A DNA stretch of 64,000 nucleotides from Enterobacter phage vB_ExiM_F4M1E: sequence record OL744216.1. One strand, written 5' to 3'. The translations under genes and the position numbers were made by a program. Below, one piece after another: positions 24,714-45,629 of the stretch (the first letter of the stretch is position 1; every line of letters starts with the position of its first letter). The notes below the pieces were generated by a model. That model was not told where the DNA came from. It saw nothing but the letters and a program-made list of their open reading frames with translations, and ran no database searches.

Positions 24714-24717
24714 TAAA

Positions 24718-25901: not shown

Positions 25902-25937
25902 CCCGGCCCGGCCCCGCAAGGGGCCAACAGAGGACAA

Positions 25938-26162: not shown

Positions 26163-26163
26163 A

Positions 26164-26388: not shown

Positions 26389-26398
26389 GGGCCGAACC

Positions 26399-26593
26399 AT
26401 GATCACAGCTTCAGAGATCCGCCAAACGTTAGCCGCCTTGCGTTACCTCCACGCCTTACGCCGGGAAAGTGATCCGACTTATGCCGGGTCATGCCTGGCT
26501 AACGATGCCGAAAACGGGATCGCCACACTGAAAGAATTAAATGATCGCATGAGCGACAGCGACCGATCCGACTTTATCGGGGGCGAAATATGA
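26399..26593 (+). CDS. hypothetical protein (64 aa)
   Basis: ORF in array. Confidence 0.4.
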   Translation: MITASEIRQTLAALRYLHALRRESDPTYAGSCLANDAENGIATLKELNDRMSDSDRSDFIGGEI

Positions 26594-26898
26594 TCGCCAT
26601 TACGCCAACCGTTTTAGATTGGTATCGCCAGCAGATCGCGCCGCCGCTGGCTATCTTCAAACAGGCCGAAAGCAAACAGCGCCGGATCTCCATTCATGAG
26701 ATCATTACGCTTAACGCTGGGCAGAAAATGAATGTTTCCCGGTCCCATATGGGCAACACGTTAGCGCTTTTAAGTTTACGCCGCAAGCGTCAACGGTTAA
26801 CCCTGGAATCACTCCGCATGATGGGACAGCCGCACCAGGTCACCGGGGACAGGATCGCCAGGGCATGGAACCGGGCAAACAGTCGAAAGGCTGGATGA
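26590..26898 (+). CDS. hypothetical protein (102 aa)
   Basis: ATGA overlap. Confidence 0.45.
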   Translation: MIAITPTVLDWYRQQIAPPLAIFKQAESKQRRISIHEIITLNAGQKMNVSRSHMGNTLALLSLRRKRQRLTLESLRMMGQPHQVTGDRIARAWNRANSRKAG

Positions 26899-27307
26899 AT
26901 TAACAGTGTTCACAGGGGTTGACTTGTTCGCCCCTTTTTTGTTATCCTTTTGTCATGCGATGGCACCTGATGCAGGGGGAGACAAACACCGGACCTGCCC
27001 GCTATTCAGGGAGGCGGACCGGACCTGGGCCGCGCCGGGCAAATGAGAATGGTTATCATTCCCAACAAAATCAAATACATACTTTAAAACCGTTGTCAAA
27101 TTTATTTCTTACCCCTGTATAAATGTACATGCCCGCCAAACGCTCTAAAACGCGTTTTAAGCCGTTTTGCCCTTCCCCGGTATCCTACACCATAAAAATA
27201 TAGATCGCCCGAAATCGGACTTTCGCACTTTTTGTCCTTGCAAACGTGAAATTTTTATGTTAGGCCTGAAGGGCTGAAAGCCGGGTGTACGTTGACAAAA
27301 CTTTACA

Positions 27308-27336
27308 AAACTCCCTATTGACGCCCGGCCCGTTAT
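27308..27336 (+). promoter_or_regulatory. promoter P20 TTGACG-N17-GATAAT
   Basis: consensus; preceded by CTTTACAAAACT motif also found at 16.82 kb. Confidence 0.55.
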
Positions 27337-27398
27337 CCCTGATAATGTATCTCGTAGGGCGGCAATGATGCGACGGCCCACAAAGAGGGGACAGTAAA

Positions 27399-27638
27399 AT
27401 GAAAGAAATCATGACCTTGGTAAAATCCCGTATGTTACGTGGCGGATTCAACGCATACGCCGACGGCAATATCATTGCCACGGTCGCAAAAGTTACAAAA
27501 AATGATAATGATTCTCAGTTCGCCGGGCAGTATCGGATCTGTTTTACCCGTGGAAAGTTGCAAGGTAAAACGGCATACGCACCAGATTTTCAAGAGCTTA
27601 ATGATCGTATTTGCGCCGTTTTAGATTTTGCAAAATAA
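27399..27638 (+). CDS. hypothetical protein (79 aa)
   Basis: RBS AAGAGGGGA. Confidence 0.5.
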   Translation: MKEIMTLVKSRMLRGGFNAYADGNIIATVAKVTKNDNDSQFAGQYRICFTRGKLQGKTAYAPDFQELNDRICAVLDFAK

Positions 27639-27641
27639 ATG

Positions 27642-27670
27642 TTGACGCTGGGGCCGAAAGGCCCCATAAT
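27642..27670 (+). promoter_or_regulatory. promoter P21 TTGACG-N17-CATAAT (GGGGCC-GAAA-GGCCCC)
   Basis: consensus. Confidence 0.6.
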
Positions 27671-27715
27671 ACCCACTCAAGCAACAAACCACTAAAAACA
27701 CTGGAGACCGTAAAA

Positions 27716-28030
27716 ATGACCAAATCTAAATTTTTCGAAATGCTGGATCGCTACCTGTCAAGCCATAACGAGTGGGCCAAACTGGGCAACGGGTACGACT
27801 CATACAAGGCCGAACAGTTAAAACCTTATGTTTTCCATGAGGACCCGGCGAACCTGGAGAAGTGGAAAGCGAAAGATCCGTCCTATCCTTGGACCGCTCA
27901 CGCTTCAGGCTTTACCCTGGCTGATTGTTGGCATGTTGAGGTAATGCAACATAAAACCGCTGAAGCCGCCGAAAAACAGCACGTAATTTTCACCCGCTGG
28001 ATCGCAGACTATCAAAAGGCCCGCGCTTAA
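27716..28030 (+). CDS. hypothetical protein (104 aa)
   Basis: ATG 27716 with RBS GGAGAC. Confidence 0.5.
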   Translation: MTKSKFFEMLDRYLSSHNEWAKLGNGYDSYKAEQLKPYVFHEDPANLEKWKAKDPSYPWTAHASGFTLADCWHVEVMQHKTAEAAEKQHVIFTRWIADYQKARA

Positions 28031-28275
28031 TGTCCCGGCTTTTTAAAATCAATCTTCCATTGTGGGCCGCTTTAGCGGTCCTCATTGCCTTTTCTGGCGA
28101 TACGGTCAACAATTGGATTTTGTCCGCTGTACTTGGACCCGATCAAATGGTCACAACATTTTTAAACGCTTTCGGCGCTACACTGGCAACGGCCCGCCTT
28201 GCCTATCGTGGCAAATCAATAAACCGTTATGATCTGGCGCTATCACTGCCCGCCCTGGTTACCTGCCTAAACTGA
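28030..28275 (+). CDS. membrane protein (81 aa)
   Basis: two TM helices; TAATG overlap. Confidence 0.45.
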   Translation: MSRLFKINLPLWAALAVLIAFSGDTVNNWILSAVLGPDQMVTTFLNAFGATLATARLAYRGKSINRYDLALSLPALVTCLN

Positions 28276-28278
28276 AGA

Positions 28279-28310
28279 GGCCCGCCACCCCGGCGGGCTT
28301 TTCTTTTGTC
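28279..28310 (+). terminator. intrinsic terminator (GCCCGCC-ACC-CCGGCGGGCTTTTCTTTTG)
   Basis: GC stem plus T-run; ends the rightward block. Confidence 0.7.
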
Positions 28311-28599
28311 CCAAACGTGGCAAGCCTGGAGGCCCGGCCCGGTATCGGTCCGACTCCCCCAGTCAATCCCCTTATCACTTCCATTTGTGGAAATCAACAC
28401 TTAATTTTATTCACTTTAAAGCGCATAATTGAATAAACGAGGAGCTAACCCACTAACCAGGGTTGAGAGTAGCGGCCCGCATAGGGCCTTACAGCGCGTT
28501 TTAGCCCCTATTGACTTCTATCTGCAAACGTGTATCAAGCCGGATCGGTGAATCATCCATTTTCTTTACATAACTTGACACTATTTATTCATTTATCTG

Positions 28600-29225
28600 C
28601 ATAATGCTAGAATGATTCTCATTTACTATCAATAACTTAACTTTTTATTGACTTCTGACAAAACACGGTTTTACGTTCCCACGGATCAAGGGAGGGCGCG
28701 CCGTAGGCGCGACCAATAGAAAACAGGTAACGGATCACCCCCTTTGCTAACTCGCAAAGGATTGTGCTCACGTTCCCACGGTCAAGGGATGACCGCTATC
28801 ACCTGTTTTCTATTGGTCATTACGTAGTAATAAAACCGCTATTGTCAAGGGCTTTTTAGTGCCTACAGGCACAAATACGAATTATTCTCATCTGCATAAA
28901 GATTGGTTTTATCTGCATAAGTACGTAAACAGGCGGACCCGTACAGCGTAGCGGGGGCCGCATAGGCCCTACCGGGCAAGGGCCTTTATTGCTCACAAAA
29001 CAGCCGAAAGCGTAGTATTTGCCTGGCAAAATTCGCTCTTCGTGTCAAGCGAAAAATAATTTTTTTTTCTTTTTGCGTAAACGATAATGATTCTCATCCG
29101 AGAACCATTCTCAAAGGGCTAATGCGAATCATTCTCATTATCATGCCACAAGGTGAGTGAGACTCATTCTCATCCAGGCCAGTGCTGGCGGGCCTCTCCA
29201 CGTGTTGGGAATGATTATCATTCAC
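28600..29225. promoter_or_regulatory. cluster of at least 7 AATCATTCTCAT / ATGAGAATGATT (Fur-box-like) sites, including palindrome GAATGATTATCATTC (approx 29209-29223)
   Basis: approx sites 28609, 28879, 29083, 29100, 29126, 29159, 29208; resembles Fur consensus GATAATGATAATCATTATC. Confidence 0.45.
28700..28820. repeat. 16-bp perfect inverted repeat CCAATAGAAAACAGGT / ACCTGTTTTCTATTGG enclosing an internal hairpin (CCTTTGC-TAACTC-GCAAAGG)
   Basis: read directly from sequence; flanked by duplicated CGTTCCCACGG(A/T)TCAAGGGA. Confidence 0.55.
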
Positions 29226-29809
29226 GTCAGTGCGTATAAGGTGTATTATGTTAAATGGGGAAATGTTGGGGGAGGCACACCACGGCCCGGCTGTCAATAA
29301 GAGAAGTGTAAAGATGGGCAAGATGGTAGACATTTTGTGACTTTGATCGCGTAAAGTTAGGGGCTACCGATCTGGATTCAAGATTGAGAGGGAGAGGCTA
29401 AGTGATTGATTATTAAGGATATTTGGGAAAAATAACAGGTGCCCCTCCCCACCCCTGTTCGCCATGCCTGGCAGCTATATCCACACACTGAGATATTTTT
29501 CTGGTTTCTGGGCAAGAAGGGCCACCCCTGATCGCGTTCTAAAAATTTTGGCGGGAGGGTATTTTGACATAAAAAGAGGGCACAGCGCCTTACAGGTGAG
29601 CCTCTTCAGGCGTCCCTTGATATTTGGGCAATGTGGGAATACAGACGGGTACGTCTCTGTGGGAACAGGTATACCCGGCGGGAGAGGGCCTCCCGGACGG
29701 GGTATGGCGCTCGCAGAGTTATCAACAGGTCTGCCTCTTTAGGCAGTGGGTACAAGACAGGTTAGGCTCTTCAGGTCTACCAGTGTGGGAAACAAAATTG
29801 TGGAGGGAG

Positions 29810-33474: not shown

Positions 33475-33690
33475 TCACAGTTTTATGCCTGTCTTGGCCT
33501 GCCAAGAGACCTGGAGGTTGATCTGCTCGATTACGTACTCCAATTGTTCCGGAAATAGCATCGAGAAGAAATCCCTCTCCTCTGGGTCGTCGAGGAAGTC
33601 CGGCTCCATGTCTTCGATGTACTGAACCACCTCTTCCATCGCCAAAAAGGCCACTTTGAAACCTTTGTATTGCAATTCTACCAGCTTCAT
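33475..33690 (-). CDS. hypothetical acidic protein (71 aa)
   Basis: ORF in array. Confidence 0.4.
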   Translation of the reverse strand: MKLVELQYKGFKVAFLAMEEVVQYIEDMEPDFLDDPEERDFFSMLFPEQLEYVIEQINLQVSWQAKTGIKL

Positions 33691-33974
33691 ACCGCCACAA
33701 ACCCATCTTCGTTCATAAGCACGTGATTCGGTGCCCAGAAGTTGTGCCGGGACTCAAGCCACAGGTAGAACCGCCGCTTACTTGACAGCGGATGCGGATC
33801 TGTCTCGTAGGAAACGAGGGCCGTTCGGCCCTTATTCTTCCCACGCAGAATACGCACACGCTGATCCTTTTTCCACTGGCACGGCACCCGTGGAGAGTCG
33901 TAGCATTTAGGCAGACATTCCATGATATGGCCCCTTTCCGCAGAACTTTTCCCAGAGTGCAGAGTCAACACCAT
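33687..33974 (-). CDS. hypothetical protein (95 aa)
   Basis: ORF in array. Confidence 0.4.
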   Translation of the reverse strand: MVLTLHSGKSSAERGHIMECLPKCYDSPRVPCQWKKDQRVRILRGKNKGRTALVSYETDPHPLSSKRRFYLWLESRHNFWAPNHVLMNEDGFVAV

Positions 33975-34419
33975 GCAGGCCCGGCAGCAGTTCCGTGATT
34001 TGTGATGTAATGCCGGGGTACAGAAACTCCAGCATCTCCAGTTCTTCGTTCTGAATGTCTCGGCAATCCATGAAGAACTCTGTCATCTTTATCGGCGGTT
34101 GCCACACCTTCCCGATCCTGCGTTTCAGGAATACATCACCACCCGGCATAGCCATCCATGTGATTCTGTCCAGCTTCCCCGTTGTGGAAATACTGAAGTG
34201 TGTTGGGACCGATGTGACTGTGCCACCCAAGTACGGACCAACATCGAAGCGGAACTTAATGGCAGGTTTGCCGACGTTCTGCACGACACGGTTATCCTTG
34301 CGGTAGCCTCCATTGCCTGTAAAGATCAGATTCCCGACGTATTTACGCCGGGTGAGGTCTCTCCATGTCCACTCCTTAAACAGCTTGTGCAGAGTGGTTT
34401 TAGTCATCCGTGGAATCAT
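33907..34419 (-). CDS. hypothetical protein (170 aa; start at MIPRMTK)
   Basis: GGAGGAAA RBS before internal ATG. Confidence 0.45.
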   Translation of the reverse strand: MIPRMTKTTLHKLFKEWTWRDLTRRKYVGNLIFTGNGGYRKDNRVVQNVGKPAIKFRFDVGPYLGGTVTSVPTHFSISTTGKLDRITWMAMPGGDVFLKRRIGKVWQPPIKMTEFFMDCRDIQNEELEMLEFLYPGITSQITELLPGLHGVDSALWEKFCGKGPYHGMSA

Positions 34420-34630
34420 CACTTTCCTCCGGCAGGATCTCAAATTTTGCCACACCCAGCACCACCACGTGACCCAGCGACAGGACCCCGGTCCACGGAG
34501 ATCCGTCACGCTTAGGGCGGGTCCCTTCAACGTCGCAGAAGCCGTTTTTAAGCTCGGTTGAAGTGAAAACCTGCCCCTTTGGAAACACTTTGTTGAAGTC
34601 CGTGATCACGTTCGTACATTTCAGCTTCAC
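34400..34630 (-). CDS. hypothetical protein (76 aa, GTG start inside upstream gene)
   Basis: 82-nt overlap with 34548-34880; uncertain. Confidence 0.25.
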   Translation of the reverse strand: MKLKCTNVITDFNKVFPKGQVFTSTELKNGFCDVEGTRPKRDGSPWTGVLSLGHVVVLGVAKFEILPEESDDSTDD

Positions 34631-35204: not shown

Positions 35205-35233
35205 AAGCAATAAAAAACCGCCCGAAGGCGGTT
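35205..35233 (-). terminator. intrinsic terminator after RCC1-like gene (CCGCC-TTCG-GGCGGTTTTTT on minus strand)
   Basis: hairpin plus 6-T run. Confidence 0.65.
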
Positions 35234-36402
35234 TAAATAACAAGGCTTGTGTCCAAAGGCACATAGGTATCAACCCTTGTCCCTCCCACACCGGGAAGAG
35301 TTCCTGCTGTCCCTCCTGAGTCCTGCCCTGTTCCGTAGAGGTTTCCGTCAATCAGCAGGTAAGATACTGAGTAATTTGATCTCATGGAGTGATAATCACC
35401 CTGTAAGGTGCTCGAAGGCATCGCCGTAAAAGAGTACCTCTGTGCCTGGGAAGGTCCCGTCCCTTGACTTTGACCACTGTTTGTCCCTGTGTAGTAAAGC
35501 ACCCCTGTGACCGGATGGGTTACCCTTGCCGAGTAAAGACCTGTATAAATTACAGGCACGCCCTTGCTCCGATCGGATATGTTCTGCCACACCGCCGTCG
35601 GGTTTCGGTAACTTGCATCACCAGTGGAACCTGTCCCCAGACTTCCTCCAAAGTGACGACCTTGGACATAAGTGGCATAAACAGACCCTGTATCCACAAT
35701 CATAAAGACCCCAGTGTGTCCCGGGAAGAAGTCTTTTGTGATGAGGGATTGCAGTGCCCATGTACTAACTGCACCGCTGATAGACCCAGCCTGTCCGTAG
35801 TCAGACGACCCTGCCACATAAAAATGGCCACTTTTTCTGAGGAGGTAGGAGGTATCTGTGGAACCTTGGTCAAATGCAATTTTCTCAACGTCAGTGAAGT
35901 CATTCCTCATGGTCAGGGTTCTGACTTGATCGGCATTACCTTGTCCCAAACCTCCACTGTTATTCCTTCCACACATGGCGTACTGCCCATCTGTAAAGAC
36001 CACAGCAAGAGACCTGAACCCCAGAGAAACCTCTTTGATAGACAACCCTTCCGGATAGGTCATGTACTCAGAGACATCAGTCAGCCCTTGTATAACGGAG
36101 CCAAGGGCAGTGGGGAACATCTCGTTTGAACCCACGAACATCCACCTGCCGTCCTTCATCCTCATCAGCACTTGACGGTGAGCCATCCAAAAGTCTTCAA
36201 CCCCTCCGGCGAGGAGGGTCCAAGTCTTGACAGCACCTCCAGTACCGCTGATATACAGGTCACCAATAACGTACAAATTGCCAGAATTTGCAAGTGCCCC
36301 TATTCCTGTCGAGGATGTCCCGATCTTTAGGATATTCCCCCCGGGGACAGGAGTTTTACCCCCTGCCAGCATAAGTTCAATCATGTCATCCTCCGATATC
36401 AA
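35233..36402 (-). CDS. RCC1-like repeat (beta-propeller) protein, paralog A
   Basis: repeated G-x-N/S-x-x-G-Q-L/A-G blades (GRNNSGGLGQG, SSDYGQAGS); N-terminus MIELMLAGGKTPVPG shared with paralog B. Confidence 0.55.
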   Translation of the reverse strand: MISEDDMIELMLAGGKTPVPGGNILKIGTSSTGIGALANSGNLYVIGDLYISGTGGAVKTWTLLAGGVEDFWMAHRQVLMRMKDGRWMFVGSNEMFPTALGSVIQGLTDVSEYMTYPEGLSIKEVSLGFRSLAVVFTDGQYAMCGRNNSGGLGQGNADQVRTLTMRNDFTDVEKIAFDQGSTDTSYLLRKSGHFYVAGSSDYGQAGSISGAVSTWALQSLITKDFFPGHTGVFMIVDTGSVYATYVQGRHFGGSLGTGSTGDASYRNPTAVWQNISDRSKGVPVIYTGLYSARVTHPVTGVLYYTGTNSGQSQGTGPSQAQRYSFTAMPSSTLQGDYHSMRSNYSVSYLLIDGNLYGTGQDSGGTAGTLPGVGGTRVDTYVPLDTSLVI

Positions 36403-37562
36403 ACCAGCGCAGACGTATCAAGTTCTTGGAACTCCCTGAGTTGCCCGGGAGGATGTCCCGGCAGAAGGCCGTCAGAAGTATTACCTGCCCCGTACAGCCG
36501 CCCATCGTCAATATAATACGACTGGTAGAAAGACCCACGAGAGCACGTCCAGTTTTTTGTTGGGTTCTGGGTTGCAACAGGCATCTCTGTGAATACCCCT
36601 AAGTATGCCCCGGAGTTCCAGTTTGGTGCTCCGTTTGCCGCAGAGTTATTCCCTGTGTGGTTCCAGAGACCATTTGTACCCCACACTTTTGCCATATACA
36701 CCCCCATCACAAACGGGGAATCTTCAATCGCCACAGAAGGTGCCGCCACTAAGGCCGATTGGGGGTACGCCGAGTTCGATCCGTTACCCCTTCCGATTGA
36801 CCCTTGCGACTGGAATCCGTTGGACCAGATCTGGTGGTAATTCGGTATTGTTGCGTGACGACGACGGACAAAGAGGGCTTGGTTACCGCCAATAATTTCC
36901 GCATTCAGTGTGTGGGTGACAGTCGATATGAATGTCAGGGCGGTATTGTTGGCAAGAGTCCCTCCAAGCTGACCTTGGCTCCCGTTTCCCCATCCCCCAA
37001 CCCTGCCATCCTCCAGCAACACATAAGTAGTATCGATGGTGGAATAATCCAGTGCAAACTGAACTATTGGAGATGGCCCATTTATCGCGCTCCAATAGTT
37101 CTTCCCTGTGGAGGTTGAGCCGAGACCACATCCACCGTTGGAGTTCAAACCCCGAAGCCTGAGCATACCAGAAGTGTATAGAACACCAATGGTCGTATGT
37201 GAGATGTCCCACTGTTTAATTTCCAGCGCCCCGAGGATCTCCATTAGGCTTGTTACATCCGTTGGGGTGTACAGGTTTGTCGCCAAGGAGGCAAAATAGT
37301 TATTGACCCCCACGAACATCCACCTGTCAAAGGAAGTCCTCCACAGGATGGCCCTGTAACCACATCGGAAATCGGCGACACCTGTTGCCAAAAGCGTCCA
37401 CTCAGTGACTTTGGCTCCGGTCCCGCTGGTGTACAGGTTAGAGATTGTGTACATGTTCCCCGTGTCTGTCAGGGCAACAATCCCGCCATCCACTGTGCCA
37501 ATCTTGGCTATTTTCCCCGGCGGTGCCGGGACCTTACCCCCGGTCATCATCAATTCGATCAT
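36399..37562 (-). CDS. RCC1-like repeat (beta-propeller) protein, paralog B
   Basis: GNGSQGQLGG-type blades; same N-terminal motif; ATGA overlap with paralog A. Confidence 0.55.
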   Translation of the reverse strand: MIELMMTGGKVPAPPGKIAKIGTVDGGIVALTDTGNMYTISNLYTSGTGAKVTEWTLLATGVADFRCGYRAILWRTSFDRWMFVGVNNYFASLATNLYTPTDVTSLMEILGALEIKQWDISHTTIGVLYTSGMLRLRGLNSNGGCGLGSTSTGKNYWSAINGPSPIVQFALDYSTIDTTYVLLEDGRVGGWGNGSQGQLGGTLANNTALTFISTVTHTLNAEIIGGNQALFVRRRHATIPNYHQIWSNGFQSQGSIGRGNGSNSAYPQSALVAAPSVAIEDSPFVMGVYMAKVWGTNGLWNHTGNNSAANGAPNWNSGAYLGVFTEMPVATQNPTKNWTCSRGSFYQSYYIDDGRLYGAGNTSDGLLPGHPPGQLREFQELDTSALV

Positions 37563-37613: not shown

Positions 37614-37784
37614 TTACAGGGGTGCAATATCTGACTCAGGCACTTCCTGAATCACAGGTCGCCCACCGATATTTACCTCAACATACCAGTTCTCTGTATC
37701 AATAACCGCAGAAAGAGTCTTCCCGGTCAGACCTTCAAATGGGCCGGAGATGAATCGGATTTGTTGATATTCACTAAGTGACAT
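37614..37784 (-). CDS. small KOW-domain-like protein (56 aa, NusG C-terminal-like)
   Basis: FISGPFEGLTGKT...VEVNIGGRPV pattern; RBS GAGGAAG; 58-nt overlap with upstream gene lowers confidence. Confidence 0.3.
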   Translation of the reverse strand: MSLSEYQQIRFISGPFEGLTGKTLSAVIDTENWYVEVNIGGRPVIQEVPESDIAPL

Positions 37785-38227
37785 TTATCTTCCTCGTTAA
37801 TAAACAAAGACATATCTGTCTTAAAGTCGTATTCTCTACGCCAAAAGACAGCCATAGTTTCGATGATTTGCGTCCCGTACATCGTACTGATGAACGAAAT
37901 ATCACCGTAGGTTAATTCCTTGCCAACAGGCAAGGAATCATAGAAGTGCCTCGGGACCGGAGACCAGAACTCAATACCCTTCCAGAAGAACTGGGCCTTT
38001 TGGTGCGTTCTCTCGTCGAAGGCATATTTATCCCAAGCATCTCTCCCTGCCATCCCGTCTCTTCCAGTCATGCCCATAGGGCCAGTTGGGCCGGGAGGTC
38101 CGGGTCTGGTAGCAATCTCAGCGGCAGCTATGTCCCGGATGCCAGTAAAGATCTCCCCTATGGTAACTTTGTACCCCTCCTTGTTAAGCACCTCAGAAAG
38201 GGCATCACAAAGATTAAAGTTATCCAA
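37727..38227 (-). CDS. collagen-like (Gly-X-Y) repeat protein, member of paralog family
   Basis: PGPPGPTGPMGMTGRDGMAGRD triplets. Confidence 0.5.
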   Translation of the reverse strand: MDNFNLCDALSEVLNKEGYKVTIGEIFTGIRDIAAAEIATRPGPPGPTGPMGMTGRDGMAGRDAWDKYAFDERTHQKAQFFWKGIEFWSPVPRHFYDSLPVGKELTYGDISFISTMYGTQIIETMAVFWRREYDFKTDMSLFINEEDKCHLVNINKSDSSPAHLKV

Positions 38228-38423
38228 AGATCATCCCCCCGAAGAAGAATACCAATGTATAATAGATTGGAAGCCCCACCAGTATGAATCCGAAGAGGCC
38301 CAAGAGTCCTACGATCACACTCTCCGCCTTATCGAGGCTCCAATAGATCGTAAAAACCAACCCAAAGCCGGGGATTACCCCGCCAAAAACCCACATGTAC
38401 ACCATCATCAACGTAGGCATCAT
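38220..38423 (-). CDS. small membrane protein (67 aa)
   Basis: three hydrophobic helices. Confidence 0.45.
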   Translation of the reverse strand: MMPTLMMVYMWVFGGVIPGFGLVFTIYWSLDKAESVIVGLLGLFGFILVGLPIYYTLVFFFGGMIFG

Positions 38424-38758
38424 TTAATCCCCTTCACGCCATCAAGTCGGTCGATCTCCTCACGTACCGCATCTGCGTAGTCCTTGTCAACAGTGACGAC
38501 GATCACCTCGGTGGTTTGGATCTTCTTCCATCGACGGAAGAACGTTGCCAAGGACAGGTCATGACGACTTGACGGGAAGTCGTCGTCGGTCTTGTACACA
38601 TAGCCTGATTCTACCTTCACCACAGCATCATCTGCCGGGTTGTCGTAGTCTTCCTGCTCAACGCCGTCGAACGTGATCAGAACGTCATCATGGTAATGAC
38701 CTTTCCAGTATTCTTCGTCGTTGTAAAACTGTTTCCAGAGGGCACCTTGTACTTTCAT
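38420..38758 (-). CDS. hypothetical protein (112 aa; start at MKVQG)
   Basis: GGAGAA RBS before internal ATG. Confidence 0.45.
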   Translation of the reverse strand: MKVQGALWKQFYNDEEYWKGHYHDDVLITFDGVEQEDYDNPADDAVVKVESGYVYKTDDDFPSSRHDLSLATFFRRWKKIQTTEVIVVTVDKDYADAVREEIDRLDGVKGIK

Positions 38759-38893
38759 TTGAGTTCTCCGATAAAGTTTGCGACGGGAATGCCCGTCAGG
38801 ATTCACCAGTCCGATTCTGAGAGGTTTTCTGGCAGAAGATGATAAATCACCTTACCTCGGTGCAAAACCTCTTAGAATGCGTTACAGAGCGTT

Positions 38894-39100
38894 TTACGGA
38901 ACCTGTGTGCAACTAGCATTGGGACTGCCTTGCATCAATCGGCAGATCATTGTCTTTTCAGATGTCTTCGTGACGATGTAATCCGGACAGGCAATGATCG
39001 TTGCACCACCACCGTGGTCATGTATGGTACACTTATTCAGGTCCTTTTCCGCATTGACCCCGAAGGCCAGAACTGCCAACAAAATAATCAACTTTTTCAT
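38894..39100 (-). CDS. small secreted Cys-containing protein (68 aa)
   Basis: signal peptide MKKLIILLAVLAFGVNA; 4 Cys. Confidence 0.45.
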   Translation of the reverse strand: MKKLIILLAVLAFGVNAEKDLNKCTIHDHGGGATIIACPDYIVTKTSEKTMICRLMQGSPNASCTQVP

Positions 39101-39149
39101 AGCTTTTTACCCAACATGCATCCGATCCAAAAACAACACCCGATCCAAA

Positions 39150-39464
39150 CTACTGAGAAGATTGCTGCTGCGATGTACGGTCCAACCATTCATCATACTC
39201 CTTCTGCAAACCATCAAGGGTTGAGTTCACGATAAGAGGCTCTCCCTCCACCGGATCAATAACATACAGAGCGCCGGATACGTTGTCAACCTCTTCCATC
39301 ATCTTTTTGATTTCCGGGCGGTTGAAAACATCATACGGCAAGCCGTGGTAGGCTGTCTGCAACATTGTTTTGCAGTCTCGCGCCCAACCTGTATGCCAAG
39401 CATCCCCGTTTTGATCCACAATAAACATCTGGACAGTGACGAATTTACTCATCAGTTTTCCCAC
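39150..39464 (-). CDS. hypothetical protein (104 aa)
   Basis: ORF in array. Confidence 0.45.
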   Translation of the reverse strand: MGKLMSKFVTVQMFIVDQNGDAWHTGWARDCKTMLQTAYHGLPYDVFNRPEIKKMMEEVDNVSGALYVIDPVEGEPLIVNSTLDGLQKEYDEWLDRTSQQQSSQ

Positions 39465-39712
39465 CCAATCTTTTTGGATTCAACAACTTCCATGTTTTTA
39501 TAGTTCACAATCTGGTATCCTCCCAGAACCGTCCCGTGATCCGCAACCATCGCACGGGCTTGGTTCAGTGATAGAGCCATACCGATGAAGTCGTTGAACC
39601 CACCCGCCGGGTAGTACGTATCAAACGCAAACACCAAGAACATCCCAACCTCGTTGTGGTTAGCCGCTGCGGTAAGTGCTTGCGGGGTGATTTCTTTAGT
39701 CATTTCGAGCAT
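39452..39712 (-). CDS. hypothetical protein (86 aa)
   Basis: ORF in array. Confidence 0.45.
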   Translation of the reverse strand: MLEMTKEITPQALTAAANHNEVGMFLVFAFDTYYPAGGFNDFIGMALSLNQARAMVADHGTVLGGYQIVNYKNMEVVESKKIGWEN

Positions 39713-39715
39713 AAT

Positions 39716-40015
39716 TTAGTCCTCGTCCCAGTTAATCTTGCTGGCCCGGTGGCAAATTAACAACCGGGTCGCCTCTGTTTGTTTACCTTCGCCCAAGAGT
39801 GTATTGTAATCTCGGCTGAACTGCAAGTCTTTTATGACCTCTTCCAACTTTGGTTGCAGGACTTCCATCAGGATGTCCGCCTTTTCGGGATACAACGTCT
39901 CAAAAAGGTTCCACCCTGCGTCGGTGTCTTCCTCCCCCTCGCTGAAGAACTCCTCTCGGAGTTCAGGAGACATGGCATGAACCAGGAGAGAAGAGTATCT
40001 GGTGTATTTTCCCAT
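39716..40015 (-). CDS. hypothetical protein (99 aa)
   Basis: ORF in array. Confidence 0.45.
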   Translation of the reverse strand: MGKYTRYSSLLVHAMSPELREEFFSEGEEDTDAGWNLFETLYPEKADILMEVLQPKLEEVIKDLQFSRDYNTLLGEGKQTEATRLLICHRASKINWDED

Positions 40016-40188
40016 CAGCTACGCGCCTTGTGCAAAAGGCCGATGATAAAAGCGCCAACAAGGCCAAAGAACAGGCCGTTAACTACTGCCTGTGGCGTCG
40101 TCATTTGGCCCAAATACGCACCAAGCCCGCCAATCAGGGATACCATGCCAATGATAAATGCTTTCTCTGCGGTGGATACCTTTTTCAT
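40015..40188 (-). CDS. small two-TM membrane protein (57 aa)
   Basis: RBS AGGAGATAGAG; ATGA overlap; below ORF-track cutoff. Confidence 0.4.
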   Translation of the reverse strand: MKKVSTAEKAFIIGMVSLIGGLGAYLGQMTTPQAVVNGLFFGLVGAFIIGLLHKARS

Positions 40189-40242
40189 CTCTATCTCCTG
40201 TTTTGTTTGATAGGACCCATCATACAGGGTCCTGAGTGGATG

Positions 40243-40701
40243 TCAATCGTTTTCGAAAGCATTTAATGCCTGAAGTTCTTTCCAGGCTGTCATCCATGCC
40301 TGCTTGATCCGAGAATGCTCTTTAGGGTGTGCGATCTCCAACAAACGAAGCTCATCCCGGGTAATATTTCGCTCATCCTCAAAAAACTCCATAGCCTCGT
40401 CAGAAAGGTAAGCCGTAAAGACGATCTCTTTGAACTTTATCGTCCTGTTCCTCGACGTCGGAGGATCTACGATGACTTGGGTTCCAGTTGTTGTGATAGT
40501 TGGGGACGGAGTTTTCATCAAGTCCCTCATGATCTTTTCCCACTCCCTCGCCTTAATGTCCGAAGGGGGAGGTGTCCACGGTTGATGGATATTCGGAGAT
40601 GTGTGCCCGTCCCCAACTCTCCACGGCCCTCCGATCCCAATTGTTCCATTACCCATCAATGAAGAATTGATTTGGTCCTTCAGGTTCTTAGATTCACTCA
40701 T
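40243..40701 (-). CDS. paralog family member (Gly-rich N-terminus, conserved acidic C-terminal module)
   Basis: C-terminal ITRDELRLLEI...W..W module shared with 4 neighbours. Confidence 0.5.
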   Translation of the reverse strand: MSESKNLKDQINSSLMGNGTIGIGGPWRVGDGHTSPNIHQPWTPPPSDIKAREWEKIMRDLMKTPSPTITTTGTQVIVDPPTSRNRTIKFKEIVFTAYLSDEAMEFFEDERNITRDELRLLEIAHPKEHSRIKQAWMTAWKELQALNAFEND

Positions 40702-41098
40702 CTGGCATCATCTCCCCAAGTTCAAATGCCCGGTATGCCCGGCGATTGTTCCACTCTTCCGCCCACGACTCTCGGATCGATTTCCACTCTTGCTCATCCA
40801 CCATCTTGATAAATGCCAGTTCATCACCATTAAGCTCTGTAGCATCCTCAATCATGGCGAAGGTTTCTGGTTTCAACCGGACCTTAAATGGAAGCCCGGC
40901 ATACGATAAAACATAAAGCTCCGTGTGGACACCCATAGGGCCGGGGGTCCCGGACACCCCTGCATCCCCTCTTGGACCCGACGTCCCATTTACCCTTGTC
41001 ACAACCCCTGTTGTCGCATCGTAGCGAAGGTGACCCGCCTGTAATTCCCGACGAATCCTATCCGCTGCGCTGGGGCTAATATTTCGCTTTTGGCCCAT
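40694..41098 (-). CDS. paralog family member with collagen-like tract (start at MGQKRNI)
   Basis: GTSGPRGDAGVSGTPGPMG; C-terminal LNGDELAFIKM module; GGAGAAA RBS. Confidence 0.5.
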   Translation of the reverse strand: MGQKRNISPSAADRIRRELQAGHLRYDATTGVVTRVNGTSGPRGDAGVSGTPGPMGVHTELYVLSYAGLPFKVRLKPETFAMIEDATELNGDELAFIKMVDEQEWKSIRESWAEEWNNRRAYRAFELGEMMPDE

Positions 41099-41549
41099 TA
41101 TATTTCTCCAGTAAAAGACGATCAGCTTCATCCAAAGCCCCGGCAAACAGGGGCACCATCGGGGCAAGATCTGCGTACAAGACCTCGAACATTGCCACCT
41201 CTCCTTCGTCCACATTATGGGTGTCCAAGAAGATTTCTTCGATCGATAATCGCTCCGTGTCGTTCCGTCCAAAGGCATGATAAACCAAACGATCACCTTT
41301 CTCCGGGCAGGTTCTCCATTGGAGAAGGCCACTCATACTCTTGGTCCACAGCCGGAGATCTCCGTTCTTCATCTCGTGACGCATGGTAAACTCACGGTTG
41401 GTATTAGGTCCGGTAGGAACCTCCAAGGTCAATCCCCGGAACTTACCTTCCAGCCTGGTTACGATCTGCCTTCTAACCGGATCGCCCATAACCGCCTTCC
41501 AACTCCAGTCTCGTGCCAGTCTTTCTATCACATCTTTGATTTCACTCAT
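41076..41549 (-). CDS. paralog family member (157 aa)
   Basis: C-terminal VDEGEVAMFEV module. Confidence 0.5.
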   Translation of the reverse strand: MSEIKDVIERLARDWSWKAVMGDPVRRQIVTRLEGKFRGLTLEVPTGPNTNREFTMRHEMKNGDLRLWTKSMSGLLQWRTCPEKGDRLVYHAFGRNDTERLSIEEIFLDTHNVDEGEVAMFEVLYADLAPMVPLFAGALDEADRLLLEKYNGPKAKY

Positions 41550-41551
41550 TA

Positions 41552-42067
41552 TCAGTCCTTCAGTGGGAAAAATACAGACAGGGTATTAGAACCCGCCGCC
41601 TTATCGAGTTTCCGGATAACACCGAAGAACTCTCGGTTCATATCTATCAACATCTGCTCGTCACCATAAAGCATCTGGAACATATCCAACTCTTCAAATG
41701 TCGGACGCCAAGGATCGTTAAACATCTCCGACATGTGGGTTTTCAATCCTGCCCCGTTATCGTAGATGCAGGAGTTCCCCGTTACTGTTAAACGAGACCG
41801 GGATAGCATCAGCCCGGGAATCTCCAGGCTCACCAATTCACCGGACGCTGGGTCGATATTCGCCTTTACCATCTTCTCGATATCCCAAGAGGAATCAGTC
41901 TTGGTCTTCAGGTAGAACGATGCTCGGCTATCGACATCTATTCCGCGCTCCACCCGGTACTCCAAGAACTTGAAGAAAATCTGGTGCTTCAGCCAGTGGC
42001 TCCAGCCGATCCACCTGGCACCCTGTCCAAATACCTCACGGGTTATCTCCTCTGATGTCTTTCGCAT
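41552..42067 (-). CDS. paralog family member (171 aa; start at MRKTSEE)
   Basis: C-terminal FEELDMFQMLYGDEQMLIDM module; GGAGAG RBS. Confidence 0.5.
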   Translation of the reverse strand: MRKTSEEITREVFGQGARWIGWSHWLKHQIFFKFLEYRVERGIDVDSRASFYLKTKTDSSWDIEKMVKANIDPASGELVSLEIPGLMLSRSRLTVTGNSCIYDNGAGLKTHMSEMFNDPWRPTFEELDMFQMLYGDEQMLIDMNREFFGVIRKLDKAAGSNTLSVFFPLKD

Positions 42068-42461
42068 ATTTGTCTCTCCACTCATTTAGCTCGTTGCTCG
42101 CCAACTGCTTCGCCCTGAGATCTGACCACAGGTCCTCAAATGCCTTGTAATCTTCAGGGTATGTTGTCTCGAATATCGCCAAATCATCCATGTCCAGATT
42201 ATCGGGGTCGGGGAACAATTCAGTGATATCGTGTTCAGACCACAGTGTAACCTCAACACCCTTGTAAGTCAACGTGTATTGATTCTTCCTTACGAAAGGT
42301 CCCTGTGGGCCAGTCATAGACCCCAACCCATTCCATTGCCTGCCGTCCCATGAGTACAGGTCTGACCCGACAATATAAGTGTCCCCGGCTGAAACCGCCT
42401 GCGGGGGACAGGGGAGTTCATGGACCCCGGACAAATAACCTTTTATCACCAACCCGTTCAT
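42036..42461 (-). CDS. paralog family member with short Gly-X-Y tract (141 aa)
   Basis: GSMTGPQGP; C-terminal LDMDDLAIFET module. Confidence 0.5.
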   Translation of the reverse strand: MNGLVIKGYLSGVHELPCPPQAVSAGDTYIVGSDLYSWDGRQWNGLGSMTGPQGPFVRKNQYTLTYKGVEVTLWSEHDITELFPDPDNLDMDDLAIFETTYPEDYKAFEDLWSDLRAKQLASNELNEWRDKYAKDIRGDNP

Positions 42462-42508
42462 ACCACCCCCAAAAAGAAAGGCCGATCGCCTTTCGACGAT
42501 CGACCCGA

Positions 42509-44025: not shown

Positions 44026-44517
44026 TCACGGACAACAGCGGTCTGACCCGCCGCAGTAATATGACCAGTTCTTACCGTCATAGTAATTTACTGATCCGAC
44101 TCTTTCACATCTCTCGCAGCGTTCCTCTCTTACGTAGTAGTCGATGCTGCACGAGTGTGGTCTGTTGAAAGCCTCGATTAGGTCAAAGCATAAGGTTCTT
44201 AACCACTGCATCTGATTATGGTCACAAACCTCCAGCAAGTCAATCTCTTCTTTTCTCGGACGGGCAGGATCTTCGAAATATGGTGTCACAACCGACCCGA
44301 GTGCGAGACTGGTTACCTCACCATCCACCACGTTGTACACAATATCCTCTATGTGGCGGACAGTAACTTCTTCGATTACTTCCTTGCAGGCTTTTCCACC
44401 AATGCTTACTTTCCCATTCCGGATGTTGTCCTCAATCCAACGAATCACCGGGAATTTCTCCCGGTGTGTTTTCATTGACAACAGGTAAGCCATTCTTCCG
44501 TTGTTCATTGTTACCAT
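44026..44517 (-). CDS. Cys-rich hypothetical protein (163 aa)
   Basis: CERCERVGS...CGGSDRCC cysteine clusters. Confidence 0.45.
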   Translation of the reverse strand: MVTMNNGRMAYLLSMKTHREKFPVIRWIEDNIRNGKVSIGGKACKEVIEEVTVRHIEDIVYNVVDGEVTSLALGSVVTPYFEDPARPRKEEIDLLEVCDHNQMQWLRTLCFDLIEAFNRPHSCSIDYYVREERCERCERVGSVNYYDGKNWSYYCGGSDRCCP

Positions 44518-45629
44518 ACGGAATCCTGAACTTTGAGGATCAGTTCTTCAGCCAAGCGTTTGTTGCTGTTCTTTGGCAACTTACTCTCATGGTACAGAAC
44601 TTCACGAATCAGTTTATCCTTGTCTTCCGCCCACTCAACGATATCCTCATAGCTGTGGGTTCCGTTACGGATGCCGAGCAGTTCCTCTGCGTCCGGACGG
44701 CGAACGATAACCTGACCAGTTTCCAAGATTTCCTGTCCCATACGGAGAAGGCGCACCAAGTGCATGGCATGTTTGGTGTCGTAACCGAACTTCTCTTCCA
44801 GTTCGTGCCGGGCGGCGTTACGGTTCTTCACCCACTGCCAGTAGTTGTGATGCTTATCCTTTGCCACCATATGGTCCTGCCGCAGATACTTCACGATGAA
44901 CAGCGGCGGTTGCTTCTTCACAGATTCCGGGATCTCGTCGTACTGCAATTTACGGATCGATCCATCCGGGTTGAACATTGGGCCAACATCTTCCCGATGG
45001 TCTGGAACGACACCGTAGATGTCTGCACCGAATGGCACCAGTGTGCAAACGCCTTCCATGTTGTTCAGCTTACGCATGAAGTCTTCGTGCTTCAACACCT
45101 TCACGTCGAGGTAGCTCTGGACCAAACGGAAGAACTCCAGTTGGGTAGGCTTGGCCTCCGGCATCGGGTTATTGATGTGCTTGTTGTGACCACGAATACG
45201 TTTCAACTGGGCCATTGCATAACCGCCGAAGCGGTAGGCTACGTTTTTGTTCAGCAACTCCGGCAGGAAAGATTTGAGGTAGTCCCACGCCGGGTGCTTG
45301 TACAGGGTTGCCTGATCATCGGTGAAGCCAAGCTCGATGATGTTGGGATTCATGTCGCAGAACAATTCCATGAAGTTGTTCAGTTCATAAACCTTACCAT
45401 CCTCTTCGTCCTCAATCCCCATTTCACGGAGAGTGCGGAACGGTGCCCGGATGACTCCCGGGCGGGCAACGATAATGCCACGGATATCGGTATCGCTAGT
45501 CGGAGTCGCCGTCCCATACGCATGAGATCCGGCGAGACATAACATCAGCACCTTCGACACGTCTTTGTGACTTTCCAGTTTCTCGACGATGCTTTTTACC
45601 CTTCCATTTGTCACAATGGTATTTTCCAT
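44511..45629 (-). CDS. Pol-beta superfamily nucleotidyltransferase (possibly RlaP-like RNA-repair-associated NTase; start at MENTIV)
   Basis: hGS-x9-13-DxD signature AGSHAYGTATPTSDTDIRG; GGAGGA RBS; possible Rx4H (RNAARH) in C-terminal helical part. Confidence 0.55.
   Translation of the reverse strand: MENTIVTNGRVKSIVEKLESHKDVSKVLMLCLAGSHAYGTATPTSDTDIRGIIVARPGVIRAPFRTLREMGIEDEEDGKVYELNNFMELFCDMNPNIIELGFTDDQATLYKHPAWDYLKSFLPELLNKNVAYRFGGYAMAQLKRIRGHNKHINNPMPEAKPTQLEFFRLVQSYLDVKVLKHEDFMRKLNNMEGVCTLVPFGADIYGVVPDHREDVGPMFNPDGSIRKLQYDEIPESVKKQPPLFIVKYLRQDHMVAKDKHHNYWQWVKNRNAARHELEEKFGYDTKHAMHLVRLLRMGQEILETGQVIVRRPDAEELLGIRNGTHSYEDIVEWAEDKDKLIREVLYHESKLPKNSNKRLAEELILKVQDSVW

What the first reader, a model, noticed from the sequence alone, without database searches (positions are those of the whole stretch)
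37727..42461. Lineage-specific expansion: five or six consecutive paralogs sharing an acidic C-terminal module, several with collagen-like Gly-X-Y tracts
The genes at 37727, 40243, 40694, 41076, 41552 and 42036 are unrelated at their N-termini. All but the first end in an alignable helical module (for example ITRDELRLLEI, LNGDELAFIKM, LDMDDLAIFET, VDEGEVAMFEV, YGDEQMLIDMN), with two conserved Trp in three of them. Three carry short collagen-like triplet runs (PGPPGPTGPMGMTGRDG; GTSGPRGDAGVSGTPGPMG; GPQGP). Tandem paralog families with hypervariable N-termini are typical of arms-race functions such as receptor binding, host-factor decoys or anti-defense. They sit here among non-structural genes and next to two RCC1-like propeller genes.
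Basis: seen in the sequence. Interest (0 to 1): 0.7.

Follow-up and report, generated by a model that had tools for sequence, protein, structure and literature searches.

The report
Phage mini-collagen paralog family
A group of small genes in this Enterobacter/Klebsiella-type phage really is one lineage-restricted family: its members share a previously undescribed C-terminal domain that usually sits right after a short collagen-like stretch, and what they do is still unknown.

Summary
The window is a Certrevirus (Vequintavirinae) phage; all genes concerned are on the minus strand.

- **Core family.** B (40243-40701), C (40694-41098) and F (42036-42461) share a gap-free C-terminal domain of about 70 aa (profile-profile probability about 97%, E about 1e-10).
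- **Peripheral members.** D, E and A share only its first 30-45 aa, weakly but above chance.
- **No known relative.** The domain matches nothing in Pfam, NCBIfam, PADLOC or PDB. An exhaustive search of 1.8 billion proteins found only small proteins; the two more distant ones I traced lie at the same locus on Certrevirus-like contigs.
- **Collagen junction.** In 69 of 148 members, 3-10 Gly-X-Y triplets directly abut the domain.
- **Fibre link.** The N-terminal half of F is one copy of the "beta-knob + collagen" unit that builds the phage's own 1,093-aa collagen fibre.
- **Selection and turnover.** All six genes evolve under purifying selection (dN/dS 0.02-0.45). N-termini evolve faster than the domain. 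Copy number varies and paralogs recombine.
- **Not seen in virions.** Published virion proteomics and cryo-EM do not list these proteins.

Best reading: non-virion, probably trimeric "mini-fibres" whose shared domain nucleates a short collagen stalk under variable heads. The target is unknown and an arms-race role is not shown.

The parts
42036..42461 (-). Gene F (141 aa): N-terminal beta-knob, vestigial Gly-X-Y, full C-terminal module
   Evidence: ORF. phrog_13666, E 7e-68. Family profile E 2e-27. AF2 model mean pLDDT 78.
42318..42461 (-). F residues 1-48: four-stranded beta-knob, homologous to the repeat unit of the Certrevirus collagen fibre
   Evidence: Matches tail-fibre PHROGs at E 4e-7 to 3e-3. 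tblastn hits annotated tail fibres including CR3_008. A profile of this domain hits CR3_008 seven times, full-sequence E 1.6e-61. Strands at 5-10, 27-31, 34-38 and 43-48 in the model.
42294..42311 (-). F residues 51-56, GPQGPF: two-triplet remnant of a collagen run
   Evidence: Read from the sequence. F-type homologues carry up to about 6 triplets here. The W-x3-G-x3-GPxG junction is the same as in CR3_008.
42039..42293 (-). F module (residues 57-141)
   Evidence: Alignment A2. Model: strands 60-66 and 69-75, helices 79-82, 91-100 and 102-137; the ten-residue blocks covering residues 61-130 average pLDDT 81-90.
41552..42085 (-). Gene E (177-aa ORF; probable start 42067, giving 171 aa): peripheral member
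   Evidence: phrog_12009. Motif match at ORF residues 114-143, E 3e-3. Real score above all 2,000 shuffles. dN/dS 0.06-0.13.
41657..41746 (-). E partial module motif (LKTHMSEMFNDPWRPTFEELDMFQMLYGDE)
41076..41549 (-). Gene D (157 aa): peripheral member, a compact alpha/beta domain whose C-terminal third follows the same secondary-structure order as the module
   Evidence: phrog_12686. Family profile E 8e-5. AF2 model pLDDT 86.8, pTM 0.83, strand 87-92 then helices 103-106, 115-124 and 134-150. dN/dS 0.02-0.03.
41169..41243 (-). D partial module motif (IEEIFLDTHNVDEGEVAMFEVLYAD)
40694..41098 (-). Gene C (134 aa): N-terminal region, 6 Gly-X-Y triplets, full module
   Evidence: Orthologue annotations. 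phrog_19834. Family profile E 2e-30.
40931..40987 (-). C collagen-like run (residues 38-56, GTSGPRGDAGVSGTPGPMG)
   Evidence: Read from the sequence. Pfam Collagen E 0.014, below the curated cut-off. The run ends at the start of the module.
40697..40930 (-). C module (residues 57-134)
40243..40701 (-). Gene B (152 aa): N-terminal region with a Pro/Thr-rich stretch, no collagen run, full module (residues 81-152 = 40246-40461)
   Evidence: phrog_21419. Family profile E 8e-29. Alignment A2.
37727..38227 (-). Gene A (166 aa): N-terminal region, 7 Gly-X-Y triplets (38039-38101), partial module motif (37868-37990), own C-terminal tail
   Evidence: phrog_16086. Pfam Collagen E 0.004. hhalign A-C 90%. 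Family profile E 8e-3. Real score above all shuffles.
33907..34419 (-).
   Evidence: BLASTP against D E 7e-7 over 164 columns. phrog_12307 with cross-hits to D's phrog_12686. Family profile E 1.7e-4. Start codon checked. A fold search with the D model finds a 162-aa CR9 protein at TM 0.66; I take it to be the CR9 counterpart of this gene because the length matches CL97_gp192.
33475..33690 (-).
   Evidence: Family profile E 4.7e-4, profile positions 2-49. Real score above all shuffles, though narrowly: 16.9 bits against a best shuffle of 16.6.
44026..44517 (-). Possible further carrier of the partial motif (YFEDPARPRKEEIDLLEV); 163 aa
   Evidence: Family profile E 0.018. Real score above all shuffles. 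Weakest of the candidates.
42479..42506 (-). Terminator-like hairpin (12-bp stem plus T-run) directly upstream of F's ribosome-binding site
   Evidence: A terminator is annotated at the same place in phiTE. Sequence.
40219..40246 (-). Sigma-70-like promoter match (TTGACA-16-TATGAT) at the 3' end of B, marking the end of the F-E-D-C-B block
   Evidence: a consensus match only

Best explanation
Genes F-E-D-C-B form a tightly packed, same-strand block, with overlaps of 8-32 nt or a 2-nt gap. Together with the outlying genes A, 33907-34419 and 33475-33690, they are a paralog family restricted to Certrevirus-type phages.

**Shown**
- B, C and F share a self-contained C-terminal domain of about 70 aa. 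Its order is beta-hairpin, short helix, acidic loop, helix, then a long Trp-bearing helix. It has no described relative.
- The other members keep only its first half.
- In about half of all family members, 3-10 Gly-X-Y triplets end within 0-3 residues of the domain.
- The piece in front of that in F is one 'beta-knob + collagen' unit copied from the phage's own beaded collagen fibre.
- The genes are under purifying selection, with faster-evolving N-termini.

**Inferred**
- The shared domain is the trimerisation and chain-registration unit that a collagen triple helix needs next to it. The proteins would then be small homotrimeric 'mini-fibres': a constant base, a short collagen stalk and a variable N-terminal head.
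- They are made inside the infected cell from the non-structural arm of the genome and are not built into the virion.
- The heads probably bind different host or phage partners. The partners and the biological role (host takeover, superinfection control or help with fibre assembly) are not known.
For: **Family and domain**
- hhalign gives 96-97% for B-C, B-F and C-F. Alignments are gap-free.
- PHROG profiles cross-hit.
- The word-indexed search found 109 homologues, and the named ones are all Certrevirus phages or phage contigs in host assemblies. The exhaustive search found 69 representatives, all 85-177 aa with the domain C-terminal, apart from one false positive.
- The locus is the same in distant contigs.

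**Fold**
- In the F model the module region averages pLDDT 81-90 per ten-residue block.
- D has the same order of secondary-structure elements in its C-terminal third.

**Collagen junction**
- 69 of 148 members carry 3 or more triplets and 61 carry 5 or more. The run ends within 3 residues of the domain start in 62 of the 69.
- Shuffled N-termini reach 5 triplets in 5 of 2,960 trials.

**Precedent.** In prophage EPclA, a C-terminal PfC fragment of 64 residues that follows the collagen region is an experimentally shown trimerisation domain (PMC3368898).

**Real genes:** dN/dS 0.02-0.45, lower in the module than in the N-terminus for B and C.

**Non-virion**
- The genes lie among small non-structural-arm genes, near RlaP- and tRNA-nucleotidyltransferase-type genes.
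- The CB7 paper places the virion-morphogenesis ORFs mostly in gene region 1, with CB7_55 as the named exception. The one family gene I can number, CB7_170, falls in the CB7_144-240 range the paper calls region 4 (PMC7344957).
- The phiTE whole-virion cryo-EM paper never mentions a pTE1xx product (PMC11972413).
Against: - No multimer prediction or experiment was possible, so trimerisation is an inference from the adjacency to Gly-X-Y.
- The module folds confidently as a monomer in the model.
- B-type members mostly lack Gly-X-Y, and this window's F has only two triplets.
- PfC is reported to have little helix, whereas this module is helix-rich, so the analogy is architectural only.
- D, E and the D-like paralog have no collagen and a different overall fold, so the trimer model may not apply to them.
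- Virion proteomics can miss low-copy proteins. I did not see the full CB7 protein table, and the phiTE supplementary table was not readable here.
Confidence: 0.45

Rival explanations
1. The shared module is a common docking domain rather than an oligomerisation domain. Each paralog would be a monomeric adaptor that brings a different N-terminal piece to one common partner, a host or phage protein. The Gly-X-Y runs would then be only flexible or extended linkers.
For: - The module is more conserved than the N-termini and is acidic.
- It folds as a stand-alone unit in the monomer model.
- The most widely kept part is a short helix-loop-helix motif present in at least nine neighbouring genes. 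That pattern would suit a shared interaction surface.
- B-type members lack collagen.
Against: - Runs of 5-10 uninterrupted Gly-X-Y triplets, which differ in length between members and are placed exactly at the domain border, are hard to explain as mere linkers.
- In the phage's own fibre the same knob-plus-Gly-X-Y unit is repeated seven times, as expected for a trimeric collagen-type fibre.
Confidence: 0.25
2. They are minor virion parts or fibre-assembly factors: small fibres or adaptors attached through the common module, or chaperone-like helpers that template trimerisation of the 1,093-aa collagen fibre.
For: - F's N-terminal half is homologous to the fibre repeat unit, including its junction with the collagen run.
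- A and C orthologues are annotated 'tail fiber protein' in PcCB7V.
- The best structural match is the GVE2 ORF18 protein, deposited as a putative pectin lyase.
- phiTE has a third, unmodelled fibre (PMC11972413).
Against: - The genes sit outside the part of the genome where the CB7 paper places the virion-morphogenesis ORFs, on the arm that carries nucleotide-metabolism-type and many small genes.
- No pTE1xx product appears in the phiTE virion study.
- B and C are deleted in phiTE, and B is split in PcCB7V, without loss of viability.
- The 'tail fiber' annotations most likely rest on the Gly-X-Y runs alone.
- D, E and B have no fibre-like part.
Confidence: 0.2
3. The similarity is debris: decayed fragments of tail-fibre genes or chance acidic helical similarity, without function.
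For: - Some homologues are truncated or split (P0082, P0106 and P0108; PcCB7V gene B).
- The D, E and A matches are short.
Against: - Intact ORFs persist across phages whose modules have diverged to about 20% identity.
- dN/dS is 0.02-0.45.
- Profile E-values for B, C and F reach 1e-10 to 1e-30.
- The module is absent from the fibre gene.
- Real scores exceed all shuffles.
Confidence: 0.05

Closest known systems
Prophage collagen-like proteins of E. coli O157 (EPclA/B: PfN - PCoil - collagen - PfC; PMC3368898)
   Same: These are phage-borne proteins in which a Gly-X-Y run is directly followed by a small non-collagenous C-terminal domain. That domain (PfC, cloned as residues 363-426, 64 residues) was shown to trimerise. 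Collagen length differs between members in multiples of three residues.
   Different: - EPcl proteins in the paper's table are roughly 400-670 aa, against 100-180 aa here.
- No Pfam match to any phage-fibre domain.
- PfC has little helix, whereas this module is helix-rich.
- The genes here lie on the non-structural arm and form a multi-copy family.
Certrevirus collagen-repeat protein (CR3_008, 1,093 aa; probably the counterpart of the collagen-domain virion protein CB7_10)
   Same: F's N-terminal 50 residues plus the Gly-X-Y junction equal one of its seven 'beta-knob + collagen' units (42-45% identity to Certrevirus fibres; profile E 1.6e-61).
   Different: - The fibre has seven such units and a beta-rich C-terminal end, and its gene lies near the major capsid protein gene.
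- It lacks the family's C-terminal module.
- F has a single unit. B, C, D, E and A have none of the knob.
Trimerisation domains of multiplexin collagens XV and XVIII (PDB 3n3f, 9bnb)
   Different: - The scores are weak and there is no sequence similarity.
- The matched part of F is unknown and is probably the N-terminal knob, not the shared module.
- From my own knowledge of the multiplexins, not tested here: their trimerisation domain lies C-terminal to the triple helix, whereas the knob in F lies N-terminal to the Gly-X-Y.
PHROG families of unknown function: 21419 (B), 19834 (C), 13666 (F), 12686 (D), 12009 (E), 16086 (A), 12307, 25810
   Same: Each gene is a full-length member of one of these families, with E from 2e-9 to 1e-106.
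   Different: PHROGs keeps them as separate, unannotated families. The shared C-terminal domain, the fixed collagen junction and the link to the fibre repeat are not recorded there.

Membership tests
Collagen triple-helix repeat (Pfam PF01391) | Score at or above the curated gathering cut-off (27.2 bits) | tested here: not met
   A scores 17.4 bits (E 0.004) and C 15.6 bits (E 0.014). F has no hit.
Collagen triple-helix repeat (Pfam PF01391) | Uninterrupted Gly-X-Y periodicity beyond chance | tested here: met
   A has 7 triplets and C has 6. Family-wide, 61 of 148 members have 5 or more, against 5 of 2,960 shuffles. Whether runs this short form a triple helix was not testable here.
Phage tail-fibre proteins with knob-collagen repeats (CR3_008 type; phrog_15437, phrog_3904) | Homology to the beta-knob repeat unit | tested here: met
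   Met for F only: PHROG E 4e-7 to 9e-7, tblastn E 5e-5 to 1e-4 against Certrevirus fibres, seven repeat hits in CR3_008. No other copy of this domain in the window.
Phage tail-fibre proteins with knob-collagen repeats (CR3_008 type; phrog_15437, phrog_3904) | Long multi-repeat chain encoded in the structural module | tested here: not met
   F is 141 aa with one unit. It lies about 2 kb downstream, in the direction of transcription, of an RlaP-type nucleotidyltransferase gene, among small genes.
Phage tail-fibre proteins with knob-collagen repeats (CR3_008 type; phrog_15437, phrog_3904) | Presence in the virion | not testable with these tools
   Literature only. The CB7 paper lists 26 virion proteins, places the morphogenesis ORFs mostly in gene region 1, and none of those it names in the text is a family gene (PMC7344957). 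No pTE1xx product appears in the phiTE virion study (PMC11972413). Supplementary tables were not readable.
EPclA-type prophage collagen-like proteins | PfN and PfC flanking domains | tested here: not met
   No Pfam domain other than weak Collagen hits in A and C. NCBIfam gives none.
Multiplexin-type collagen trimerisation domain | Fold match to 3n3f or 9bnb | tested here: inconclusive
The Certrevirus C-terminal module family itself (B/C/F type) | Full-length match to the profile of about 70 positions | tested here: met
   B, C and F score E 8e-29, 2e-30 and 2e-27. D, E, A, 33907-34419 and 33475-33690 match only part of it, at E 8e-5 to 8e-3.
Known anti-phage defence proteins (PADLOC) | Any profile match | tested here: not met
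   No family at E up to 0.1 for eight proteins. This library covers defence systems, not phage counter-defence proteins.

The most novel reading that the evidence does not exclude
The shared domain of about 70 aa is a new, compact collagen-nucleating trimerisation domain. It lets a virulent phage make intracellular 'mini-collagens' with swappable heads, including a copy of its own fibre's knob. These would act as effectors or decoys during infection. For example, they could mask the flagellar receptor, or titrate a host factor or immune sensor that recognises the fibre. Paralog recombination would supply new head-base combinations.
Probability: 0.15. Interest if true: 0.75.

Novelty: new variant of a known kind. 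Interest (0 to 1): 0.45.

Why it matters
- **A new building block, if the inference holds.** If the module trimerises, it is a new small domain that sets up very short collagen helices. That would be of practical use for engineered collagen-like materials, as foldon and the bacterial collagen-like protein domains are.
- **An unusual location.** As far as I know, collagen-like sequence in phages is described only in virion fibres. A conserved multi-copy set of tiny collagen-bearing proteins on the non-structural arm, one of which copies a unit of the phage's own fibre, would be a new use of that element.
- **Annotation.** The result ties together at least eight 'hypothetical' PHROG families. 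It also corrects 'tail fiber protein' annotations that probably rest only on Gly-X-Y runs.

Tried and rejected
- **Curated libraries.** Pfam, NCBIfam and PADLOC give nothing for the module.
- **PDB by sequence.** No significant match for F alone or for the module profile. The best hits are yeast AFT2 at E 0.19 and the DSR2 defence protein at E 0.3-0.7, which I treat as chance.
- **False positive.** P0151, a 3,076-aa protein of acidic tandem repeats, came up in the exhaustive search through 11 weak stretches. It is compositional, not a homologue.
- **Knob profile against PDB.** Only weak hits: phiKZ inner-capsid gp184 at E 0.014 and the JBD30 DUF2793 protein at E 0.11. Neither is informative.
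- **Wasted search.** The third homologous-protein run, with the 53-aa knob profile, returned one hit because the word index is too coarse for so short a query.
- **Unavailable library.** afdb50 was not on the machine.
- **Structural link from D to B/C/F.** The D model searched against BFVD found only D-type proteins.
- **Weak candidates.** Genes 39150-39464 and 39716-40015 were considered as further members. Their shuffle p-values are only about 0.001-0.003 and their profile E-values 0.3-0.4, so I did not count them.
- **RNA elements.** No tRNA or Rfam element in the window that could re-interpret the region.
- **Early promoter.** The CB7 early-promoter consensus does not occur next to the block.

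Full report
**Origin and layout**

The window is a Certrevirus (subfamily Vequintavirinae). The 6-kb stretch around the finding is 89% identical to Klebsiella phage KaOmega and 78-85% identical to the CR3, phiTE and POP15 group. The RlaP-type nucleotidyltransferase gene is 100% identical to a fragment named Enterobacter phage SS-2025.

All genes concerned lie on the minus strand. I call them:
- A: 37727-38227
- B: 40243-40701
- C: 40694-41098
- D: 41076-41549
- E: 41552-42085, with 42067 the probable start
- F: 42036-42461

C is the 134-aa ATG ORF annotated in the related phages, not the 212-aa GTG ORF. F to B are packed with overlaps of 8-32 nt or a 2-nt gap. A terminator-like hairpin sits directly before F's ribosome-binding site. 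A promoter-like match sits at the end of B. A is separated from B by seven unrelated small genes.

**Is the shared module real?**

For B, C and F the answer is yes.
- Single-sequence BLASTP already gives 35 and 30 bits.
- Profiles built from orthologues in seven phages align at 96-97% probability, E 2e-10 to 1e-9, over 68-71 columns.
- The multiple alignment has no gaps across about 70 columns.
- PHROG models built by others cross-hit between the three families.

For D and E the match is confined to about 30-45 residues, with the pattern F-x-D-x3-L-x2-[DE][DE]-[LMV]-x-[LMF]-[FLI]-x3-Y.
- hhalign gives D-F 87%, D-E 73% and E-F 62%.
- With a profile built from 165 family sequences, the six-frame ORFs of the window rank as follows: C, B and F at 1e-27 to 1e-30; D at 8e-5; 33907-34605 at 1.7e-4; 33478-33753 at 4.7e-4; E at 3e-3; A at 8e-3; 44029-44547 at 0.018. 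Noise begins at 0.16.
- Each of these weak matches beats all 2,000 composition-preserving shuffles of the same protein.

- 33907-34419 is a full-length paralog of D (BLASTP 7e-7; reciprocal PHROG hits).
- 33475-33690 is a 71-aa protein consisting of little more than the first two thirds of the module.

**Structure**

The AF2 model of F has mean pLDDT 78. It shows:
- an N-terminal four-stranded knob (residues 5-48);
- a disordered Gly-X-Y linker;
- the module: hairpin 60-75, short helix 79-82, loop, helix 91-100 and long helix 102-137. The ten-residue blocks covering residues 61-130 average pLDDT 81-90.

The model of D (pLDDT 86.8, pTM 0.83) is one compact domain. Its last third has the same order of elements: strand, short helix, loop, helix, long helix.

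A fold search with D against viral models retrieved only the D orthologue and D-like paralogs, not B, C or F. D, the D-like paralog and probably E therefore form a sub-group that shares only the half-module.

**Distribution**

- The word-indexed search found 109 homologues. Those that carry a source name are Certrevirus phages or host-genome assemblies holding phage-sized contigs, and the longest contigs are about 140-155 kb.
- The exhaustive HMMER search of 1.84 billion representatives found 69. All are 85-177 aa with the module at the C-terminus, except one compositional false positive.
- Even the most distant members sit at the same locus, downstream of the tRNA-nucleotidyltransferase-type and RlaP-type genes and a 152-aa protein, in tandem sets of 3-4 full copies plus partial ones.
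- The syntenic 13-kb flanks in SSBI34, a Seunavirus, an Avunavirus, a Mydovirus and a Vibrio phage have none.

Copy number varies:
- CR9 has two F-type genes.
- phiTE lacks B and most of C. A deletion there fused C's N-terminus and collagen run to the tail of the 39150-type gene.
- PcCB7V has a split B.
- DU_PP_I has fragments.

Metagenomic chimeras show recombination between paralogs. P0001 combines the two F types, P0091 and P0093 combine C and B parts, and P0121 switches from F-type to C-type at the conserved Trp motif.

"Lineage-specific expansion" is confirmed.

**Collagen-like tracts**

The window has 7 triplets in A, 6 in C and 2 in F. All are below the Pfam cut-off.

Family-wide the pattern is strong. 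Of 148 members with an N-terminal region, 69 have 3 or more triplets, 61 have 5 or more, and the longest has 10. The run ends within 3 residues of the module's first position in 62 of the 69. Shuffled N-termini reach 5 triplets in 5 of 2,960 trials. Run lengths also differ between otherwise similar members.

**Origin of F's head**

- F residues 3-55 hit tail-fibre PHROGs.
- tblastn with an F-type head finds annotated tail fibres in 272 phage records, including the Certreviruses' own collagen-repeat protein.
- That protein, CR3_008 (1,093 aa), lies near the major capsid protein gene. It consists of seven 'beta-knob + Gly-X-Y run' units. The family's head profile hits all seven (full-sequence E 1.6e-61), and the W-x3-G-x3-GPxG junction is the same as in F.
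- The C-terminal module does not occur in it, and no second knob occurs in the window.

**Selection**

Against KaOmega, CR3 and P7, every gene for which a ratio could be computed has dN/dS below 1:
- D: 0.02-0.03
- E: 0.06-0.13
- B: 0.09-0.22
- C: 0.21-0.24
- A: 0.24-0.45

For F, synonymous sites are saturated, so no ratio could be computed. For B and C the N-terminal parts (0.11-0.41) are less constrained than the modules (0.05-0.20).

Across the family, pairs with modules 95% identical have N-termini only 65% identical. These are functional genes with faster-evolving heads. There is no gene-wide signal of positive selection.

**Virion or not?**

The CB7 study identified 26 virion proteins by ESI-MS/MS. 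It places the morphogenesis ORFs mostly in gene region 1, with CB7_55 in region 2 as the named exception, and it also mentions CB7_251 as a structural protein. None of the proteins it names in the text is a family gene. The one family gene I can number, CB7_170, falls in the CB7_144-240 range the paper calls region 4 (PMC7344957).

The phiTE whole-virion cryo-EM and mass-spectrometry paper never mentions a pTE1xx product. The family genes there are phiTE_119 and phiTE_123-125 (PMC11972413). Its supplementary abundance table could not be read, so low-copy presence is not excluded.

**Explanation**

A collagen triple helix needs an adjacent non-collagenous domain that brings three chains together in register. 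The prophage protein EPclA shows this arrangement in phage-derived proteins: a 64-residue C-terminal PfC fragment following the collagen region trimerises (PMC3368898).

Here, the only constant element next to the Gly-X-Y runs is the shared module, and the junction is fixed. I therefore propose that the module is the trimerisation and registration domain of small 'mini-fibres' with variable heads, made in the infected cell and not built into the virion.

- Shown: the family, the domain, the junction, the fibre origin of F's head, purifying selection and copy-number variation.
- Inferred: trimerisation, intracellular action and any role in host interaction.

The main rival is that the module is a common docking domain of monomeric adaptors. 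A second rival is a virion or fibre-assembly role. The debris hypothesis is essentially excluded.

**Novelty and score**

Each gene is already catalogued as a separate unknown-function PHROG. What the libraries searched here do not record is the unifying C-terminal domain without known relatives, its fixed junction with short collagen runs, the extended membership, and the derivation of one member's head from the phage's own collagen fibre.

It is a new variant of a known kind: phage collagen-like proteins with a flanking non-collagenous domain. The finding is real and moderately interesting. The arms-race interpretation remains unproven.

Noticed in passing
window 35233-36402 and 36399-37562 (minus strand): Two tandem RCC1-like beta-propeller genes (Pfam RLD, E 1e-14 and 2e-10, both below the curated cut-off). 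By annotated gene length, KaOmega and POP15 carry one gene of this size at the same place, while CR3, phiTE, P7 and CR9 carry none. This is a second variable-copy family next to the one studied.
   Followed up: partly
L003 (phiTE) 4290-4610, compared with window 39150-39464 and 40694-41098: phiTE gp122 is a fusion of the C-type N-terminus and collagen run with the C-terminal 40 residues of the 39150-type gene. It arose by a deletion of roughly 1.5 kb, judged from the window's coordinates, at a shared 'LYV' site, which removed B and four small genes. A metagenomic protein (P0017) keeps the same N-terminus on an intact C-type module.
   Followed up: partly
window 22502-22533 and 22753-22784 (+), 55861-55890 (-): Three exact matches to the Certrevirus early-promoter consensus reported for CB7 (TGTTGAC-N-TATAAT; 0.02 expected by chance). 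The two plus-strand copies have a G+C-rich inverted repeat (CCGGG...CCCGG) inside the spacer.
   Followed up: no
window 16000-29700: No ORF of 180 aa or more on either strand across about 13 kb, with strongly positive AT skew. No tRNA gene or Rfam element anywhere in the 64 kb, although Certreviruses are reported to carry 1-18 tRNA genes.
   Followed up: no
window 44026-44517 (minus strand): This 163-aa gene, directly downstream of the RlaP-type nucleotidyltransferase gene, carries the family's partial motif. It ends in a Cys-rich, zinc-ribbon-like tail (CERCERVGSVNYYDGKNWSYYCGGSDRCCP).
   Followed up: partly
L016 (CR3) 1251-4532: The Certrevirus collagen-repeat protein is a regular 'beads on a string' chain: seven beta-knobs of about 47 aa, each followed by a Gly-X-Y run (eight runs of 7-23 triplets in all). 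The word 'collagen' does not occur in the phiTE cryo-EM paper, which leaves a third fibre unmodelled.
   Followed up: partly
P0121, P0001, P0091 and P0093 (metagenomic homologues): Chimeric family members whose crossover lies inside the module. P0121 switches from F-type to C-type right after the conserved W-x3-W. This indicates homologous recombination between tandem paralogs, with loss of the genes in between.
   Followed up: partly
L001 (KaOmega) 7350-7829 compared with window 42036-42506: KaOmega's annotation starts the F orthologue 18 codons further upstream. By comparison with the window, that places the start inside the terminator-like hairpin, so it is probably a mis-called start.
   Followed up: partly
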